A stretch of 64,000 nucleotides of DNA from Podarcis tiliguerta. Taxonomy: Eukaryota. A program made the position numbers. Numbering within the stretch: the first letter of the stretch is position 1; each line of letters opens with the position of its first letter. Positions 2,512 to 47,500 of the stretch are shown here, one piece after another. The stretch lies in the NCBI GenBank assembly GCA_965153285.1, contig OZ229112.1; one strand, 5' to 3'.

Positions 2512-5500
2512 AGCAGTTGGGCCTTTTCAGTTTAGAGAAAAGGTGAATGAGAGGAGACATGGTAGAAGTTTATAAAAATTAAGCATGGCATAGAGAAAGT
2601 GGCTAGAGAAACATTTTTCTCCCTCCCTCATAAGACCAGAACTCGTGAACATTCATTGAAGCTGGTTGTTGGAAGATTCAAGACAGGTAAAAGGAAGTTA
2701 AACTATGGAACTCGTTCCCACAAGAGGCAATGATGGCCACCATCTTGGGTGGCTTTAAAAGAGAATCAGACAGATTTGGGGAGGATAAGGCTATTGGTGA
2801 CTAGTTGCCATAGTAAGTAGATTGGAGGCAGTGACCTTTCTGAATACCCGCTGCTGGAAACTGCAGGAGAGAGCACTCTTGAGTTCTGCTTGTGGGGTCC
2901 CCATAGGCCTTTGCTTGGCCACTGTGAAAATAGGAGACGGTGTTAGATGGGCCACTGGCCTTCTCTGCATTCAGGGCAGGTGTCTTTCTGTGTGTAGGGT
3001 GGAGACACGTCAATTTCATCACTGCTTTGTTAAGTTTTAAAATTAAGATATTGCAGTGCTGGGGGACACAGATCCTCTCCTTAAGTGTGTTTGTGGGGGA
3101 AGGACCTTCTCCAGGAAGTGGCAATAGCAGTACAGTCGTACCTCGGGTTGAAGTTGCTTCAGGTTGAGTGTTTTCGGGTTGCACTCTGCGGCGACCCGGA
3201 AGTAACGGAACACGTTACTTCCGGGTTGCGCCGCTCGTGCATGCGCAGACGCTCAAAATGATGTCATGCACAGAAGCGGCGAATCGCAACCCGTGCAGAC
3301 GCGGTTTGCGTTCGCTTCAGGATGCGAATGGGGCTCTGGAACGGATCCCATTCACATCCAGAGGTACCACTGTACTGGTGGTGGCCAATCCAGTCCAGCA
3401 TCCTGTTCCCGCAGCTGCCAACCAGATGCCTGCGGGAAGCCTGCAAACTGGTATTCAGGAGCATGAAGAGAGAGCCGGTGTGGTGTAGTGGTTAGAGTGC
3501 TGTGCTAGGACCTGGCAGACCAGAGTTCGAATCCCCACTCAGCTGTGAAGTTCACTGGGTGACCTTGGGCCTGTTGCCATATCTCAGCCTAACCTGCCTC
3601 ACTGGGTTGTAGAACTGTAAAGTTGGAATGTACCCCCCCCCCCAGGCTCATCTAAGTCCAACCCCCTGCAATGTAGGAATCTTAGCTGAAGGTTGGGAGG
3701 ATAAAATAGGGAGGAGGAGAACCGTGTACACCATCTTAGAGGAAAAGGCGGTAAATAAATGCAATAAGTAAATAAATAAAGTAATCATGCAAATAACATG
3801 TTTATTTTTTAGCAGTGGCATTTGCAAGGTGGATGCAATTAAGTACAGCTGCCACAGGACAACTACTGTAGCATGAGCCCCTCCTCCCCAAAAAGAGATG
3901 TCATTTGAAACTAAGAAGCTAGCTTCCCCTGAGTTAGGCCACTGGTCCATCTCCCCAGTATTGATTTCTTTTCTGGACCAGGAATGACTCTACAGGATTC
4001 TGGGCACATATCTCCTCCTACATGGTCCTTTTAGCTTGTGATGCATTGAAAGCAGGTGCTCTTAACACATGAGCTATGGTCCACTATCCATCCTGAGGGG
4101 GGAAAACAGCGTGTTGCTCATTTGGAAAGTTGATTGTTGCTTCTGCTTCATTTCTTTTTTGCGCTTAATTATTATCGTTTGCATCCTCTTGCCTGATGGT
4201 TCACTGACCTATATCTGTGTTGCGATTTTCTCCGGAAGGGCAGTTCTGTTCTGTATTATTGCAACGTTGAGCTTGATCTCAGTCTGTCGATTGCATATTA
4301 AAAAAATTTCCTAAAATATATATTTAAGGGGGAGGGGGACAGCAAGCAGCATATGTTCCCAGCTGCAAAATATGGAGCCTCCCACAGCTAAGAAAAATCA
4401 GCACTTTGACACTCTGAAGATTAAGGGAAGACAGCATGAATGGCATGCAATAAATGGGTAGAAACGTTTCCATTTATTGCACTAGAAACTGGTCTTGTGA
4501 TATTACAGATGGCAGGGAGAGGTCATACACAACTGGGATAAGTGTATGCTGGAAATGAAAATGGATTCTACACACTTCTGTCCCAACCTGGCAAATTTGT
4601 GATGGGTTCACCAGCCTTTTCCTGCTGACACAAGTTAGCCATAGCTTGGAGTTCTGCCTTCCTGGTGCAATAAATCCTGCTCTCTGCTTTGCCTTGCAGG
4701 TGATGACTGCAGTGACCACTGTAACTTGGCTCATGGAAGCTGTGACGAGGACGGCAAATGCAGGTAAAGCCATACTTGGGTGCTGTTAAAACAGAGGGCA
4801 GCTCAAACACGGCGTCACTCCAAACCCTGCACATTTTGTGCCAACCACCCCAAGAAGTAGTGTCCTATAAGCTTCTACTCTCAGAGTTGGCCCAATACAT
4901 TTTGCTGCCTGGTGCGACAAAGGACAAGATGGCGTCCCCTCCCATTCAGTGTATAGAAGCTGATTGAACTAGCCATTAGTTTTTATTGCAACACCGGTGT
5001 TGCGACAGCCGTGCCTGAGGACAGCAGGCCGGCCTAGAGGGTGCAAAGTTGGCTGTGTGGCACACACAGATGTTTTCTGCAACCAGGGCCAGCCCACCCA
5101 TGAAGCAAGGGGAGGGGACTGCCTCAGGTAGCAGGATCTGTAGGAACAGCAGATCCAGCCTCTAAGGAATGCGTTGCCCGCTTATGCTGCCACTGCTGCA
5201 ACAGCTGTGGCATGTTTCTTGGAGGTCAAATCTGCTGCCTCCTCAGCAGCACCCCCATGCCACCCCTACAGTGGCCTCTTGTGAATATGAGGTACTGCCC
5301 ATGCCACCCCTACAGTGGCCTCTTGTGAATATGAGGTACTGCTGGCTCACTTGGGAGGAAATGGTGGGTATCTGGTCCACCAAAGGCTGCCCCCTCCCCC
5401 CCACCATTCCCACTTAAACCACCAGGTAAGGTTTATTTTATTTTAAAATAAATATTATTTTTCAGGTTTACAGAGATACAAATCCAATTTTCCCCCAATA

Positions 5501-44500: not shown

Positions 44501-47500
44501 TTCTTGTGCTTAGCTCTTAAACTTCGTAGCAGGGTTTCTGCTTGGTCTGGGGGCCTTTTGGATCTCAGCTTCCTGCCCTTTTATTTGTAGTCGTATAAAT
44601 ATTATATTTTTAAGGGAAATGGGGAATGCAATCAGACAAGATGTAATAAACCATAATAAAACAAAACCCTGCTTTCTGTGTGTAGTTTTTTGATGGGGGG
44701 GGGGGCACACCTGGTCATCCAGATCAATCCCAGGTTCATTCATTCAAGCAAATAGATCCTCATATGGAGTCCGTATATCTGAAAACTTTGCATATTTATT
44801 GCACTTACAGAAGGTCACCACCTCAAGTTGCTAGCCAAGTCATGTATTTTGTCCTTTGTATGATGGTGGGTCAGGTGGACCTTTTAAAGTCATGAGTTAA
44901 TTCTCCATGAGTTGGTAGAAAAGGATCCCCTGCCCCCCAGATTACTCGTAATTGTCTGATCTCTGTCGCTGTGCATACTGGCATGCAGTTCTGGTCTATA
45001 CCAGAAGTTGTCATTACAGAATTTCGTGGTGGTGGCAGAGAATGGTGAAGGATTGTTGGGGAGAGTTGTAAAGACTTGCAAAGAAGAAACAGAAGACTGA
45101 AGTTGCAGGATTTTGGCAACTTTGGACTTTCAACCTGCTGAGAACTTGAAGCAAAGACTGAAAACCCTCTCAAGGCTCAGAGAGAGAACCCTTCTTGAAG
45201 CAACTGTATCGAGTGCATTTGTGCTTACTAATTAAAACAACCTCCGATAGAGTTTGTCTGCTGCAGGAATTTTAATCGTTTTGCTGAACTTCTGACTGGG
45301 CAGTAAGCCAACTGATTATTGGGCACAAACTTCCAAAAGCCCTTTCCTTCCATTATTGTGTTAGATAGTGCCCTTAGCCAGTTATACTATCCCTCTGACA
45401 AGTTCCAAAGGACAGGGATACAGTTTGATAAGACACTGACATATTTCGATTTCAAATGAGTTACCAAGATCATGTTTGCGTGGCTGATTACGTGTCAAAA
45501 ATCAGCCAAATAATATGGCATAATATTGCATGTACAGCATTCCAACACCACCACATGCCAGTGCTGCTTGCTGTGTTTGGGGTTTGACATATGCCTACTA
45601 TTGCCTTAGGATATTGTTCAGAACCCATCAGTTTACTCAAAGGGCAGGGGTTTCTGAGGTGTGTGTCAGGGTCAAACAAAGCAGTTAGCAGGTGTTTTAG
45701 TGGTATATACAGCCATTCTGCAGCTGGTGGAAGAGAGCATGCCTCTTTTCATCTGGGAAAGTGGAGAAAGACATCATTTGCATAAATCACAGTTTAATTT
45801 CAATTGTTAATGGGAAATAGGAACCCCATAAAAAGGAGGGGAGAGAGTACCCAGCCTCTTTCGATTGTTTTCCTCTTTGTGGCTTCTATGCTGATCTAAC
45901 TTTTTTATATAAAAAAACCCCCAGAAAACCTTGTTATCGCGTCATTCACTTGTTGGAACAAGGAGTTTCTGTCAAATGACATCATTGTTTCCATACTGAA
46001 AAAAGTACCAGAGCTCTGAAATGCTTATGTACCAAATTTAGGTTGGCTAAGAATAAAACACAAGAAGACACCTTCCTAGGGAAATGGTTTCCCTTTGTTT
46101 CATACATGAACACTAACAGAGATTGCAGATTTGGAGGATAAGGGCTGTTTTTTCCTTCTCTTTAGAGATTTCCACACCTGATGACAACAGGAACAGACTG
46201 CAGTAGAATTTGGTATGGTTCACTTTATGTACTGCTGCATGAAGGAGAGACATGGAAATTGTAACCCAAGTTTTGAATATTGTTTATTGAGTTTGTACTT
46301 CCTTTGAAGAGATTCATTCAAAATTATTATTTCTATTTAAAAACAACAGGGCTGTGCTTCCCTGTACCCCCCCAAACCCCCTGTACCCCCCGCAAACCCT
46401 GCTGTGCTTCTATCCACATATCTATTCAATGGAGATGCCTTTCTCACTGTCCCCAGGCAAGCATTAGACAGGCATTCCTGGTTGATTGATGTGCAAAAGC
46501 CCCACCCCAAATTCTGCCTCTTCCCCACAGCTCCCTTTTGCCCCATGCTTGGCTCCACCCACTTAAACCTTCTCACCTGCCTGCTGTTGCTTTCTGCAAG
46601 AACTCTAGCATTCTTATGAGAGGCGCTTGTCTACATTATGCAAGAGAAACTCCCTTCGCTCCCAGCATCATCAAGAATTGAGACTGTGACTGTTAGTGCA
46701 AAACTAATGCCCTATGGCACTGCCCACCCCTTTTCCTATTTTTGCTACTTGTGATATTGTTGTTTTCTTCTTCTGACCCTCCTGTATTCTTTTTGTAGGT
46801 GTGACACAGGCTGGGAAGAGGAATACTGCAAACAATGTGTGGATGCCAGACTGTAGCCATGGGACTTGCTGCTAACCCTGGCAATTCAGTTGCCGAAGTG
46901 GCTGGCCAAGCAGGTTCTATGTCCAAGGTAGGCCACGCCACTTGGGACAGGGTGGGGACATCTTGAATAAAGTCAGGACAGGGAAAGGACACAGTGTTAA
47001 ATGCTCAGCTGCCTTATACTGCCCACATGGCCTTGTAGCAAGCTCCAACTGCAGCCCTTGGCAGTCCTGGACAGAGAGTGTTCTGTCACCTGTTCTCAGT
47101 TCGTAAGCTGGACTCTCAGCCGTGTGTGGAGTGCATCTTTCATTAAGCTGCAGATATCAGGAAAGGGTCCCACATTGCAGAGGGGAACATTCCCAGTCGT
47201 GAGGTACCAATTGTCCAGTGTTTGTGTCTCTGCAGGGAGGTCACTGCTGCCCACTGTGCAGAAGATGCTGAAACAGGGAGTCTGGCTTCTGGCTGAGAAC
47301 AGCAGGGGAATCAAGCTCTGCCACCTTCCCAGCATGCATCACCAGCACTCGGTCTGAGTCCAGGATAGTGTTCAACCTGAAATAAACACAGCAGCAGGGT
47401 AAGCTCTTATTTTGGAAAGAGCAGAGAACTGAAAAGTGCTGCCCTCTCTTTTATCACAGTACCTCAAAGTGGGTAAAAGAGTATTCCCTTTCAGCTACTG

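What the first reader, a model, noticed from the sequence alone, without database searches (positions are those of the whole stretch)
4000..47240. Window architecture reads as an old tandem duplication of the DLK2-ABCC10-ZNF318 block with reciprocal loss
Seen order: DLK2(+), ZNF318 exons 1-6(+), TE-rich filler, DLK2 relic(+), ABCC10(-). Ancestral order from human: DLK2(+), ABCC10(-), ZNF318(+). One tandem duplication with breakpoints inside DLK2 and in ZNF318 intron 6 predicts a ZNF318 copy lacking downstream exons, followed by a 5'-less DLK2 copy in the same orientation and an intact ABCC10; the first ABCC10 copy (expected at ~15-21 kb) and the second DLK2 copy would have decayed. A single event accounts for three otherwise separate oddities. 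The junction should lie between ~35.3 and ~46 kb.
Basis: partly seen in the sequence, partly recalled or inferred. Interest (0 to 1): 0.75.

Follow-up and report, generated by a model that had tools for sequence, protein, structure and literature searches.

The report
Old lizard duplication: truncated ZNF318, DLK2 fossil
In this lizard locus a shortened but intact copy of the gene ZNF318 sits between DLK2 and an ABCC10-type transporter gene, with one dead DLK2 exon beside the transporter, which points to a very old local duplication rather than an assembly error.

Summary
On the + strand lie DLK2 (4699-12498), six ZNF318 coding exons (21174-35273) and a 643-bp DLK2 fragment (46398-47040). An ABCC-type transporter runs on the - strand from its stop codon at 47241. 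The fragment holds one DLK2 EGF exon plus parts of both flanking introns. It matches 9933-10816 in the same orientation, and a 2-bp deletion and a stop codon inactivate it.

No ZNF318 exon 7 or later is in the window. No convincing ABCC relic lies between DLK2 and ZNF318. The filler could not be shown to be rich in transposable elements.

Protein evidence supports an old duplication of the ZNF318 5' part. Lacertid, amphisbaenian, iguanian and anguimorph models all end at the same exon-6 read-through. Anolis sagrei has both this truncated gene and a 2676-aa full-length gene on one chromosome. An Anolis-only origin is rejected (AU p = 0.0008).

An insertional duplication with a templated DLK2 piece fits about as well. 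Verdict: a new case of a known kind of event, of moderate interest.

The parts
4699..4779 (+). DLK2 coding exon (GDDCSDHCNLAHGSCDEDGKCR). The signal-peptide exon upstream of it is not in the window.
   Evidence: tblastn with named squamate DLK2 proteins
10549..10683 (+). DLK2 EGF exon (residues 81-125 of the P. muralis protein). This is the exon that is copied in the relic.
   Evidence: tblastn 92%; Pfam EGF_DL_JAG E 1.5e-10
9933..10816 (+). Source block in intact DLK2 (intron, exon, intron) that is homologous to the relic
   Evidence: nhmmer and blastn; alignment A1
11145..11291 (+). DLK2 EGF exon
   Evidence: tblastn 100% over 49 aa
11731..12498 (+). DLK2 last exon with EGF repeats, membrane span and stop codon
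   Evidence: 99.6% to P0160; Pfam EGF; named DLK2 hits
12499..21173 (.). Spacer between DLK2 and the ZNF318 copy. No ABC relic was detected. Two weak matches to the last intron of the ABC gene lie at 17409-17485 and 18462-18531.
21174..21398 (+). ZNF318-like exon 1, coding part (begins MHRSSSSRSS, rich in Arg and Ser)
   Evidence: tblastn to P0001, 91%
23922..24095 (+). ZNF318-like exon 2, with a 21-bp repeat in 7 copies
28646..29206 (+). ZNF318-like exon 3
   Evidence: tblastn 94% to P0001
31988..33412 (+). ZNF318-like exon 4 (475 codons, open)
34638..34748 (+). ZNF318-like exon 5
35025..35273 (+). ZNF318-like exon 6, read through to a stop at 35271-35273. An AATAAA lies at 35417-35422.
   Evidence: P0001 ends here; AATAAA
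35274..46397 (.). Filler of unknown make-up. Presumably a remnant of ZNF318 intron 6; it must hold the junction, or the junction sits at its right edge.
   Evidence: no ZNF318 exon 7+; 0 of 105 ORFs with TE domains
46398..47040 (+). DLK2 relic: partial intron, dead exon (46794-46917, with a 2-bp deletion and an in-frame stop), partial intron
47241..63267 (-). ABCC-type transporter gene (ABCC10 by position), from the end of the first membrane domain to the stop codon. Its 5' part lies beyond the window.
46283..46288 (-). First AATAAA on the - strand after the ABC stop codon. If it is used, the 3'UTR runs antisense across the whole relic.
   Evidence: inference

Best explanation
In an early squamate, probably before lacertoids and toxicoferans split and certainly before crown Iguania diversified, a tandem segmental duplication took place. 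Its unit ran from inside a DLK2 intron, across ABCC10, to ZNF318 intron 6.

Three outcomes followed:
1. The proximal copy of ZNF318 exons 1-6 survived as a gene of its own. It encodes about 900 aa, ends by read-through of exon 6, and lacks both zinc fingers. It now abuts DLK2.
2. The proximal ABCC10 copy was deleted.
3. The distal partial DLK2 copy eroded to a single dead exon with intron flanks, about 200 bp from the ABCC10 stop codon. That position is probably inside the ABCC10 3'UTR.

Shown here: the two DLK2 copies, the truncated and conserved ZNF318 gene, and its paralogy to a full-length gene in Anolis sagrei.

Inferred: that one event made both, that ABCC10 was included, and the two later deletions.
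For: - The relic is collinear with DLK2 and in the same orientation. It includes intron sequence, so it is a DNA-level copy and not a retrocopy.
- It lies at the 3' end of the ABC gene, convergent with it, as DLK2 does in mammals. The order comes from gene lists in PMC8942952 and PMC7451565; the strands are recalled.
- It also lies exactly at the far end of the exon-less stretch that follows ZNF318 exon 6. That is where a tandem junction is predicted.
- Intron K2P of 0.37-0.44 and exon K2P of 0.275 indicate great age.
- Truncated ZNF318-like models end at the same exon-6 boundary in Podarcis, Rhineura, Sceloporus, both Anolis species, Pogona, Phrynosoma and Varanus; the Elgaria model matches ZNF318 only up to that boundary and then carries a foreign tail.
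- A. sagrei has the truncated gene and a 2676-aa gene on one chromosome.
- The iguanian truncated clade (support 99/96) excludes the A. sagrei full-length gene. An Anolis-only clade is rejected (p 0.0008).
- Identifiers for DLK2 and the truncated gene are consecutive in P. muralis, P. lilfordi and Phrynocephalus.
- Two weak collinear same-strand matches to the last ABC intron lie at 17.4-18.5 kb. The better one scores above the best hit of all 100 shuffles.
Against: - There is no ABC relic at protein level: 17 of 17 exon frames gave nothing significant left of 47 kb.
- 0 of 59 minus-strand ORFs in 12.6-21.1 kb hit an ABC model. Power is low, because only 7 of 17 intact exon frames are recognised. 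The 5' third of ABCC10 could not be tested.
- The last ABC exon has no counterpart near the weak intron matches. Those matches could be two copies of one old repeat.
- The DLK2 relic lacks the two downstream exons that the model requires to have been there at first.
- The 200 bp between the relic and the ABC stop codon has no counterpart after DLK2.
- Trees do not resolve whether lacertoid truncated copies share the duplication with toxicoferan ones. The exon-4 tree unites all truncated copies (84/90). The longer alignment puts lacertoids outside (70/74). AU tests give p 0.41 either way.
- A full-length ZNF318 in a lacertid was not found. My searches were capped at about 2500 aa.
Confidence: 0.45

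Rival explanations
1. Insertional or replicative duplication. Only the ZNF318 5' segment (upstream region to intron 6) was copied into the gap between DLK2 and ABCC10. A short stretch of DLK2 (884 bp of source) was templated at the distal junction by template switching. ABCC10 was never duplicated and the relic never had the downstream DLK2 exons.
For: This explains, with no later deletions, the lack of any ABC relic, the small sharply bounded relic without the next two DLK2 exons, and the absence of duplicated DLK2-ABC intergenic sequence. It predicts the full-length ZNF318 paralogue seen in A. sagrei just as well.
Against: It needs three template switches in one event. It leaves the two weak collinear matches to the ABC intron at 17.4-18.5 kb to chance or to a repeat. 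After well over 100 million years, loss of neutral relics is expected anyway, so their absence hardly discriminates between the models.
Confidence: 0.3
2. Separate events. The ZNF318 5' copy and the DLK2 fragment arose at different times. For example, a local DLK2 duplication beside ABCC10 was followed later by insertion of the ZNF318 copy between the two DLK2 copies.
For: Nothing in the window dates the two duplications against each other. The second ZNF318 copy of this species was not available for a divergence comparison with the relic (K2P).
Against: It needs two duplications and still the same deletions. The relic sitting exactly at the end of the truncated gene's trailing sequence would then be a coincidence.
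Confidence: 0.12
3. No duplication of ZNF318 in this lineage. The order DLK2, ZNF318, ABCC10 is native or arose by cut-and-paste. The gene is simply split or annotated as a short isoform, or the region is misassembled.
For: No full-length lacertid ZNF318 appeared. Mammals also make a short isoform from the one gene (abstract of PMC11520953; horse isoform X2).
Against: - A. sagrei has two genes, and an Anolis-only clade is rejected.
- The DLK2 relic shows that a duplication took place.
- The mammalian order is ZNF318, ABCC10, DLK2.
- Two Podarcis assemblies and an agamid assembly show the same DLK2 adjacency by identifiers.
- My searches were length-capped, so the missing lacertid full-length gene is no evidence (the A. 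sagrei protein has 2676 aa).
Confidence: 0.05

Closest known systems
Tandem duplication followed by differential (random) loss, the classic route to gene-order change best known from animal mitochondrial genomes (recalled)
   Same: A block is duplicated head to tail. One copy of each gene is lost. The net effect looks like a transposition (ZNF318 5' part now between DLK2 and ABCC10), and a pseudogene fragment marks the event.
   Different: This is a nuclear locus tens of kb long. One duplicated piece (ZNF318 exons 1-6) was kept as an extra gene rather than lost. Loss of an ABCC10 copy is not demonstrated here.
Mouse Zfp318 with two alternative transcripts, short and long (abstract of PMC11520953; the isoform names TZF and TZF-L are recalled)
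   Same: A short N-terminal product exists beside the long zinc-finger protein. Mammalian short models of about 1130 aa appear.
   Different: In mammals one gene makes both products, and the short form still ends after the first zinc finger (horse X2 tail). In lizards the short form is a separate, older gene copy that stops one exon earlier and has no zinc finger.
Partial-gene segmental duplications that yield truncated expressed paralogues, e.g. human SRGAP2 copies (recalled)
   Same: The duplication breakpoint lies inside an intron. The truncated open reading frame ends by read-through. The copy is retained under selection.
   Different: This case is far older (shared by several lizard infraorders) and is coupled to a change in gene order. 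No function has been tested.
Replication-based complex rearrangements with templated insertions at junctions (FoSTeS/MMBIR; recalled)
   Same: A short piece of nearby sequence (the DLK2 block) sits at a duplication junction.
   Different: The junction sequences themselves are too old to read for microhomology. This remains only a rival model.

Membership tests
Tandem segmental duplication with reciprocal loss | Second copy or relic of each duplicated gene, collinear and in the same orientation | tested here: inconclusive
   DLK2: met. ZNF318: the second copy is not in the window, but a truncated and a full-length gene lie on one chromosome in A. sagrei. ABCC10: no relic found; only two weak intron matches.
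Tandem segmental duplication with reciprocal loss | A junction joining the distal breakpoint (ZNF318 intron 6) to the proximal breakpoint (DLK2 intron) | not testable with these tools
   The leftmost DLK2 homology is at 46398. Intron 6 of a full-length ZNF318 is needed to find where the intron-6 homology ends, and no vertebrate genome collection was at hand.
Tandem segmental duplication with reciprocal loss | Equal age of all duplicated parts | not testable with these tools
   Relic K2P is 0.37-0.44. No DNA of the full-length ZNF318 copy was available for comparison.
Processed pseudogene (retrocopy), as the origin of the DLK2 relic | No introns | tested here: not met
   The relic carries about 400 bp of upstream intron and about 120 bp of downstream intron, with both splice-site contexts aligned.
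DLK2 (protein delta homolog 2) | EGF-repeat ectodomain, membrane span, and best named hits being DLK2 | tested here: met
   The first coding exon lies outside the window.
ZNF318 | Homology to the N-terminal half | tested here: met
   93% to P. muralis ZNF318-like, and 47-53% to snake, bird, turtle and tuatara ZNF318.
ZNF318 | The two U1/matrin-type zinc fingers and the C-terminal half | tested here: not met
   No match in the window for 7 of 7 C-terminal queries. P0001 has no zinc-finger hit, whereas the A. sagrei 2676-aa protein has one, though below the curated cut-off. The window gene is therefore a truncated paralogue and not a complete ZNF318.
ABCC10 (MRP7) | ABCC-type membrane domains and nucleotide-binding domains | tested here: met
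   Pfam ABC_membrane and ABC_tran. PDB best hits are ABCC2, 3, 1, 4 and 5.
ABCC10 (MRP7) | Orthology to ABCC10 rather than to another ABCC member | not tested
The name rests on position next to DLK2 and ZNF318 and on the lack of a close match to any solved ABCC.

The most novel reading that the evidence does not exclude
Squamates carry a ZNF318 paralogue without zinc fingers that is 150-200 million years old (dates recalled) and kept by selection. It fixes as a separate gene something like the short isoform that mammals make by alternative transcripts. It arose through a nuclear tandem-duplication and loss event that also reordered DLK2, ZNF318 and ABCC10. The junction fossil, a dead DLK2 exon, survived because it became part of the ABCC10 3'UTR.
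Probability: 0.35. Interest if true: 0.55.

Novelty: new member of a known kind. Interest (0 to 1): 0.4.

Why it matters
It gives a dated, checkable example of how a local duplication can both reorder neighbouring genes and create a lasting truncated gene in a vertebrate genome. It also explains why annotation pipelines report 'ZNF318-like' proteins of about 900 aa across lizards. ZNF318/Zfp318 matters for spermatogenesis in mice (abstract of PMC11520953) and, as I recall, for IgD expression. A separate copy without zinc fingers in lizards is therefore a natural experiment on the roles of the two halves of the protein. For genome annotation, the practical point is that the truncated gene is a real paralogue and not a fragmentary model.

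Tried and rejected
- Rfam scan of the whole window: 0 matches.
- Pfam on the ten largest or key ORFs: only the EGF domains of DLK2, and no transposon domains.
I replaced it with stop-free ORFs.
- Search for ZNF318 exons 7 and later in the window: nothing.
- Search for further DLK2 pieces in 35-47 kb (the first in-window exon and the last two exons): nothing beyond the one exon.
- The best non-repeat protein hit of an ABC exon frame left of 47 kb (1129-1287, + strand, E 0.004 among 17 queries) is on the wrong strand, outside the predicted interval and not significant.
- Search for the GDSL-lipase-like tail that ends several other squamate ZNF318-like models: not in the window.
- The 692-aa Hemicordylus DLK2 model, checked as a possible fused double DLK2: it is only extended at the N terminus.
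- Accession numbers as a proxy for gene order proved unreliable in some annotations. Varanus isoforms of one gene are about 85 numbers apart, and Sceloporus DLK2 and ZNF318-like are about 2175 apart. I therefore used only consecutive identifiers.
- The ESM Atlas gave only a generic 'ABC transmembrane' label.
- Literature: 'ZNF318-like' gave 0 papers. 'ZNF318' with 'lizard' gave 1 paper, which only lists the gene. None of the 15 listed papers mentions ZNF318.
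Full report
**What the window is.** The 64-kb window has no N and comes from a lizard close to Lacertidae. Its largest open frame (31988-33490) is 93% identical to 'zinc finger protein 318-like isoform X1' of Podarcis muralis. Its DLK2 last exon is 99.6% identical to P. muralis 'protein delta homolog 2'. All searches with window genes were done exon by exon. I never joined exons into a spliced protein, so the window is represented in the trees by ZNF318 exon 4 alone.

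**The genes.**
- DLK2 (+ strand) has coding exons at 4699-4779, 10549-10683, 11145-11291 and 11731-12498. Its conserved signal-peptide exon is not in the window.
- ZNF318 (+ strand) has six coding exons between 21174 and 35270. After exon 6 the frame reads four more codons to a stop at 35271-35273. The P. muralis model ends at exactly this place. An AATAAA follows at 35417.
- C-terminal parts (after the exon-6 equivalent) of seven full-length ZNF318 homologues (snakes, tuatara, turtles, a bird) found nothing in the window. The best E was 1.1, so 0 of 7 gave a significant hit.
- On the - strand, 17 exon-bearing frames of an ABC transporter run from 63267 down to a stop at 47241-47243. Pfam recognises 7 of the 17 as ABC_tran or ABC_membrane. 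The best solved relatives are ABCC2, 3, 1, 4 and 5 at roughly 55% identity in one aligned exon.
- I call the transporter ABCC10 only because of its neighbours and because no solved ABCC is a close match. I obtained no named ABCC10 hit.

**The DLK2 relic.** A comparison of the window with itself found two collinear, same-strand matches between DLK2 and the region just left of the ABC stop codon. More sensitive searches extend them to 9933-10816 versus 46398-47040 (blastn; nhmmer E 4.9e-41 and 4.3e-24).
- The block is part of an intron, the whole 135-bp EGF exon and about 130 bp of the next intron. Both splice-site contexts are aligned, so it is a DNA-level copy and not a retrocopy.
- In the relic the exon has a 2-bp deletion and an in-frame stop. 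Protein identity is 13 of 16 and 15 of 27 residues in the two frame pieces.
- K2P distance is 0.275 in the exon and 0.37-0.44 in the alignable intron. With lizard neutral rates near 1e-9 per site per year (recalled, uncertain), that means well over 100 million years.
- No other piece of DLK2 is found in 35-47 kb.
- The relic ends about 200 bp from the ABC stop codon. The first AATAAA on the - strand is at 46283-46288, so the ABC 3'UTR probably runs antisense across the whole relic. This is an inference, and it may explain why the fragment survived.

**What is not there.**
- Each of the 17 ABC exon frames, searched against 1-47000, gave only hits caused by a repeat inside one frame. No exon relic appeared.
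- nhmmer of 12.5-21 kb against 47-64 kb gave transposon matches and one marginal same-strand match.
- Followed up, there are two weak collinear same-strand matches to the last ABC intron: 17409-17485 with 47850-47925, and 18462-18531 with 48007-48076. The better one scores 42.5 bits, against a maximum of 35.4 in 100 dinucleotide shuffles. The other scores 34.0, above the 95th percentile.
However, the adjacent last exon has no counterpart there, and two copies of one old repeat would look the same. I count them as suggestive only.
- A Pfam screen of 59 minus-strand ORFs in 12.6-21.1 kb gave 0 ABC hits. The control shows the screen has low power.
- The 5' third of the ABC gene lies outside the window, so I could not search for relics of it.
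- 'TE-rich' filler is not supported. Of 105 ORFs in 35.3-46.4 kb, 0 have transposon-type domains, and window-internal repeats cover about 0.7 kb there.

**Comparative protein evidence.**
- The first two database searches were limited to proteins of up to about 2500 aa. They showed lizards with only short ZNF318-like models of 900-1100 aa. Snakes, birds, turtles and tuatara had proteins of about 2000-2300 aa.
- Among the 120 listed hits to a snake zinc-finger region, the only named squamates were 6 snake entries.
- That absence was an artefact of the length cap. A search without length limits plus name look-ups showed that Anolis sagrei has a 2676/2684-aa ZNF318-like protein as well as the 903-aa one, both on the same chromosome-scale contig.
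- The long A. sagrei protein aligns with snake ZNF318 over residues 150-1703 and 1752-2221. It has a zinc-finger hit, below the curated cut-off, that the truncated P. muralis protein lacks.
- Truncated models from Podarcis, Rhineura, Sceloporus, two Anolis species, Pogona, Phrynosoma and Varanus all stop at the same exon-6 boundary; the Elgaria model matches ZNF318 only up to that boundary and then continues into a foreign tail.

**Trees.**
- An exon-4 tree (39 rows, 476 columns) unites all non-gecko truncated copies (support 84/90) to the exclusion of the A. sagrei long gene.
- A clade of the three Anolis rows is rejected (delta lnL 51, p-AU 0.0008).
- With the N-terminal half (38 rows, 869 columns), the iguanian truncated clade (99/96) again excludes the long Anolis gene. 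In this tree the lacertoid truncated copies fall outside the rest with weak support (70/74). Elgaria was dropped from this set because the cutting step gave no BLAST hit.
- AU tests reject neither 'all Iguania rows together' (p 0.14 and 0.41) nor 'all truncated rows together' (p 0.41). I named the groups after seeing a first tree.
- The sequence data therefore place the duplication before the iguanian truncated copies diverged, but they do not fix the node.
- The shared truncation point and the shared position next to DLK2 argue for one event older than the lacertoid-toxicoferan split.
- Gecko copies and the extra Erythrolamprus copies cluster by lineage. They look like separate, later duplications or copies homogenised by gene conversion.

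**Position in other genomes.** No vertebrate genome collection was available, so I used identifiers. ZNF318-like and DLK2 have consecutive numbers in three cases:

| Species | ZNF318-like | DLK2 |
|---|---|---|
| P. muralis | XP_028580143 | XP_028580146-7 |
| P. lilfordi | CAI5770718-20 | CAI5770721 |
| Phrynocephalus forsythii (agamid) | JRQ81_004198 | JRQ81_004199 |

- This supports direct adjacency in independent assemblies and speaks against misassembly.
- In A. sagrei the truncated gene (XP_067320511, XP_067320513) and the long gene (XP_067320516) are close in numbering.
- Such numbering is unreliable in other annotations (Varanus, Sceloporus), so it is a hint and not proof.
- The mammalian order ZNF318, ABCC10, DLK2, TJAP1 is taken from positional gene lists in passages of PMC8942952 (human) and PMC7451565 (cattle). 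The strand arrangement is recalled.

**Weighing the models.** The relic proves a duplication involving DLK2. The phylogeny and A. sagrei prove an old duplication of the ZNF318 5' part. The relic sits at the far end of the truncated gene's trailing sequence and at the ancestral DLK2 position beside ABCC10, which ties the two together.
It gains only weak support from the intron matches.
- A replicative, insertional duplication of the ZNF318 5' segment with a templated DLK2 piece gives the same three junctions with no later deletions.
- I rate them 0.45 and 0.30. Separate events get 0.12. Explanations with no duplication or with an artefact get 0.05.

**How the truncated gene works.** This part is inferred. 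It has its own promoter region and first exon. It terminates by read-through of exon 6 and a nearby poly(A) signal. It has kept an open 475-codon exon 4 over a time in which a neutral frame would have acquired stops; with about 3 stops per 64 codons, the chance of none is roughly 1e-10. Its branches are longer than those of the full-length genes. Together these fit a retained gene under altered constraint. Mouse Zfp318 makes two alternative transcripts (abstract of PMC11520953), so the lizard copy may fix a short-form function in a separate gene, minus the zinc finger.

**Limits.**
- No synteny, dot-plot beyond the window or long-read check was possible.
They are irrelevant here, and genome contigs holds only prokaryotes.
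- Supplementary files of papers were not consulted.
- Whether a lacertid has the full-length gene, and where it lies, stayed unchecked.
- I found no paper describing this duplication. Those searches cover only the held library.

Noticed in passing
window 23927-24072: A 21-bp unit repeated 7 times inside ZNF318-like exon 2 encodes SPGKRSH heptads. The Elgaria model matches this stretch at 14 staggered offsets about seven residues apart (residues 228-395), which suggests a much longer array.
   Followed up: partly
window 17409-17485 and 18462-18531 versus 47850-47925 and 48007-48076: Two weak collinear same-strand matches between the spacer after DLK2 and the last intron of the ABC gene. They are either the only trace of a lost ABCC10 copy or two copies of one old repeat.
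   Followed up: partly
window 46283-46288 (- strand): This is the first AATAAA after the ABC stop codon. If it is used, the ABC 3'UTR is about 950 nt long and is antisense to the entire DLK2 relic.
   Followed up: no
window 19872-20191 versus 58991-59310; 22532-22893 versus 27169-27538: Young inverted repeat pairs, 96% and 93% identical. They are presumably recent transposon copies in the spacer, in ZNF318 introns and in an ABC intron.
   Followed up: no
window 2153-2512, 50825-51190, 59842-60186, 30017-30153: A family of SINE-like repeats, some of whose copies end in a trinucleotide run ((TTG)n at 2460-2511, (ATT)n at 51134-51189). One copy makes an ABC exon frame look longer than the exon is.
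   Followed up: no
proteins P0012 (Elgaria), P0060/62/89/93 (Erythrolamprus), P0377 (Eublepharis), P0379 (Sphaerodactylus): Several short ZNF318-like models in other squamates end in a shared tail. In Elgaria it weakly matches GDSL-like lipase (E 2.4e-5, below the curated cut-off). No such sequence is in the window.
   Followed up: partly
protein P0061 (Eublepharis macularius): This gecko model contains the exon 5-6 equivalent twice before going on to downstream exons. That hints at an exon-level or gene-level duplication ending at the same intron 6.
   Followed up: no
proteins of Erythrolamprus reginae (P0002, P0060, P0062, P0089, P0093): One snake has at least four extra short ZNF318-like models on the same chromosome. 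They cluster with its own full-length gene, so they are recent lineage-specific copies.
   Followed up: partly
window 1-4698: The highly conserved DLK2 signal-peptide exon (MLRSFCLQLMSLLWIL...) is absent from the 4.7 kb upstream of the first DLK2 exon in the window. It must lie further upstream.
   Followed up: yes
locus tags of Aldrovandia affinis: In this fish, ZNF318 (AAFF_G00140380) and DLK2 (AAFF_G00140340) are four tag steps apart. That is consistent with a few genes lying between them outside squamates.
   Followed up: no
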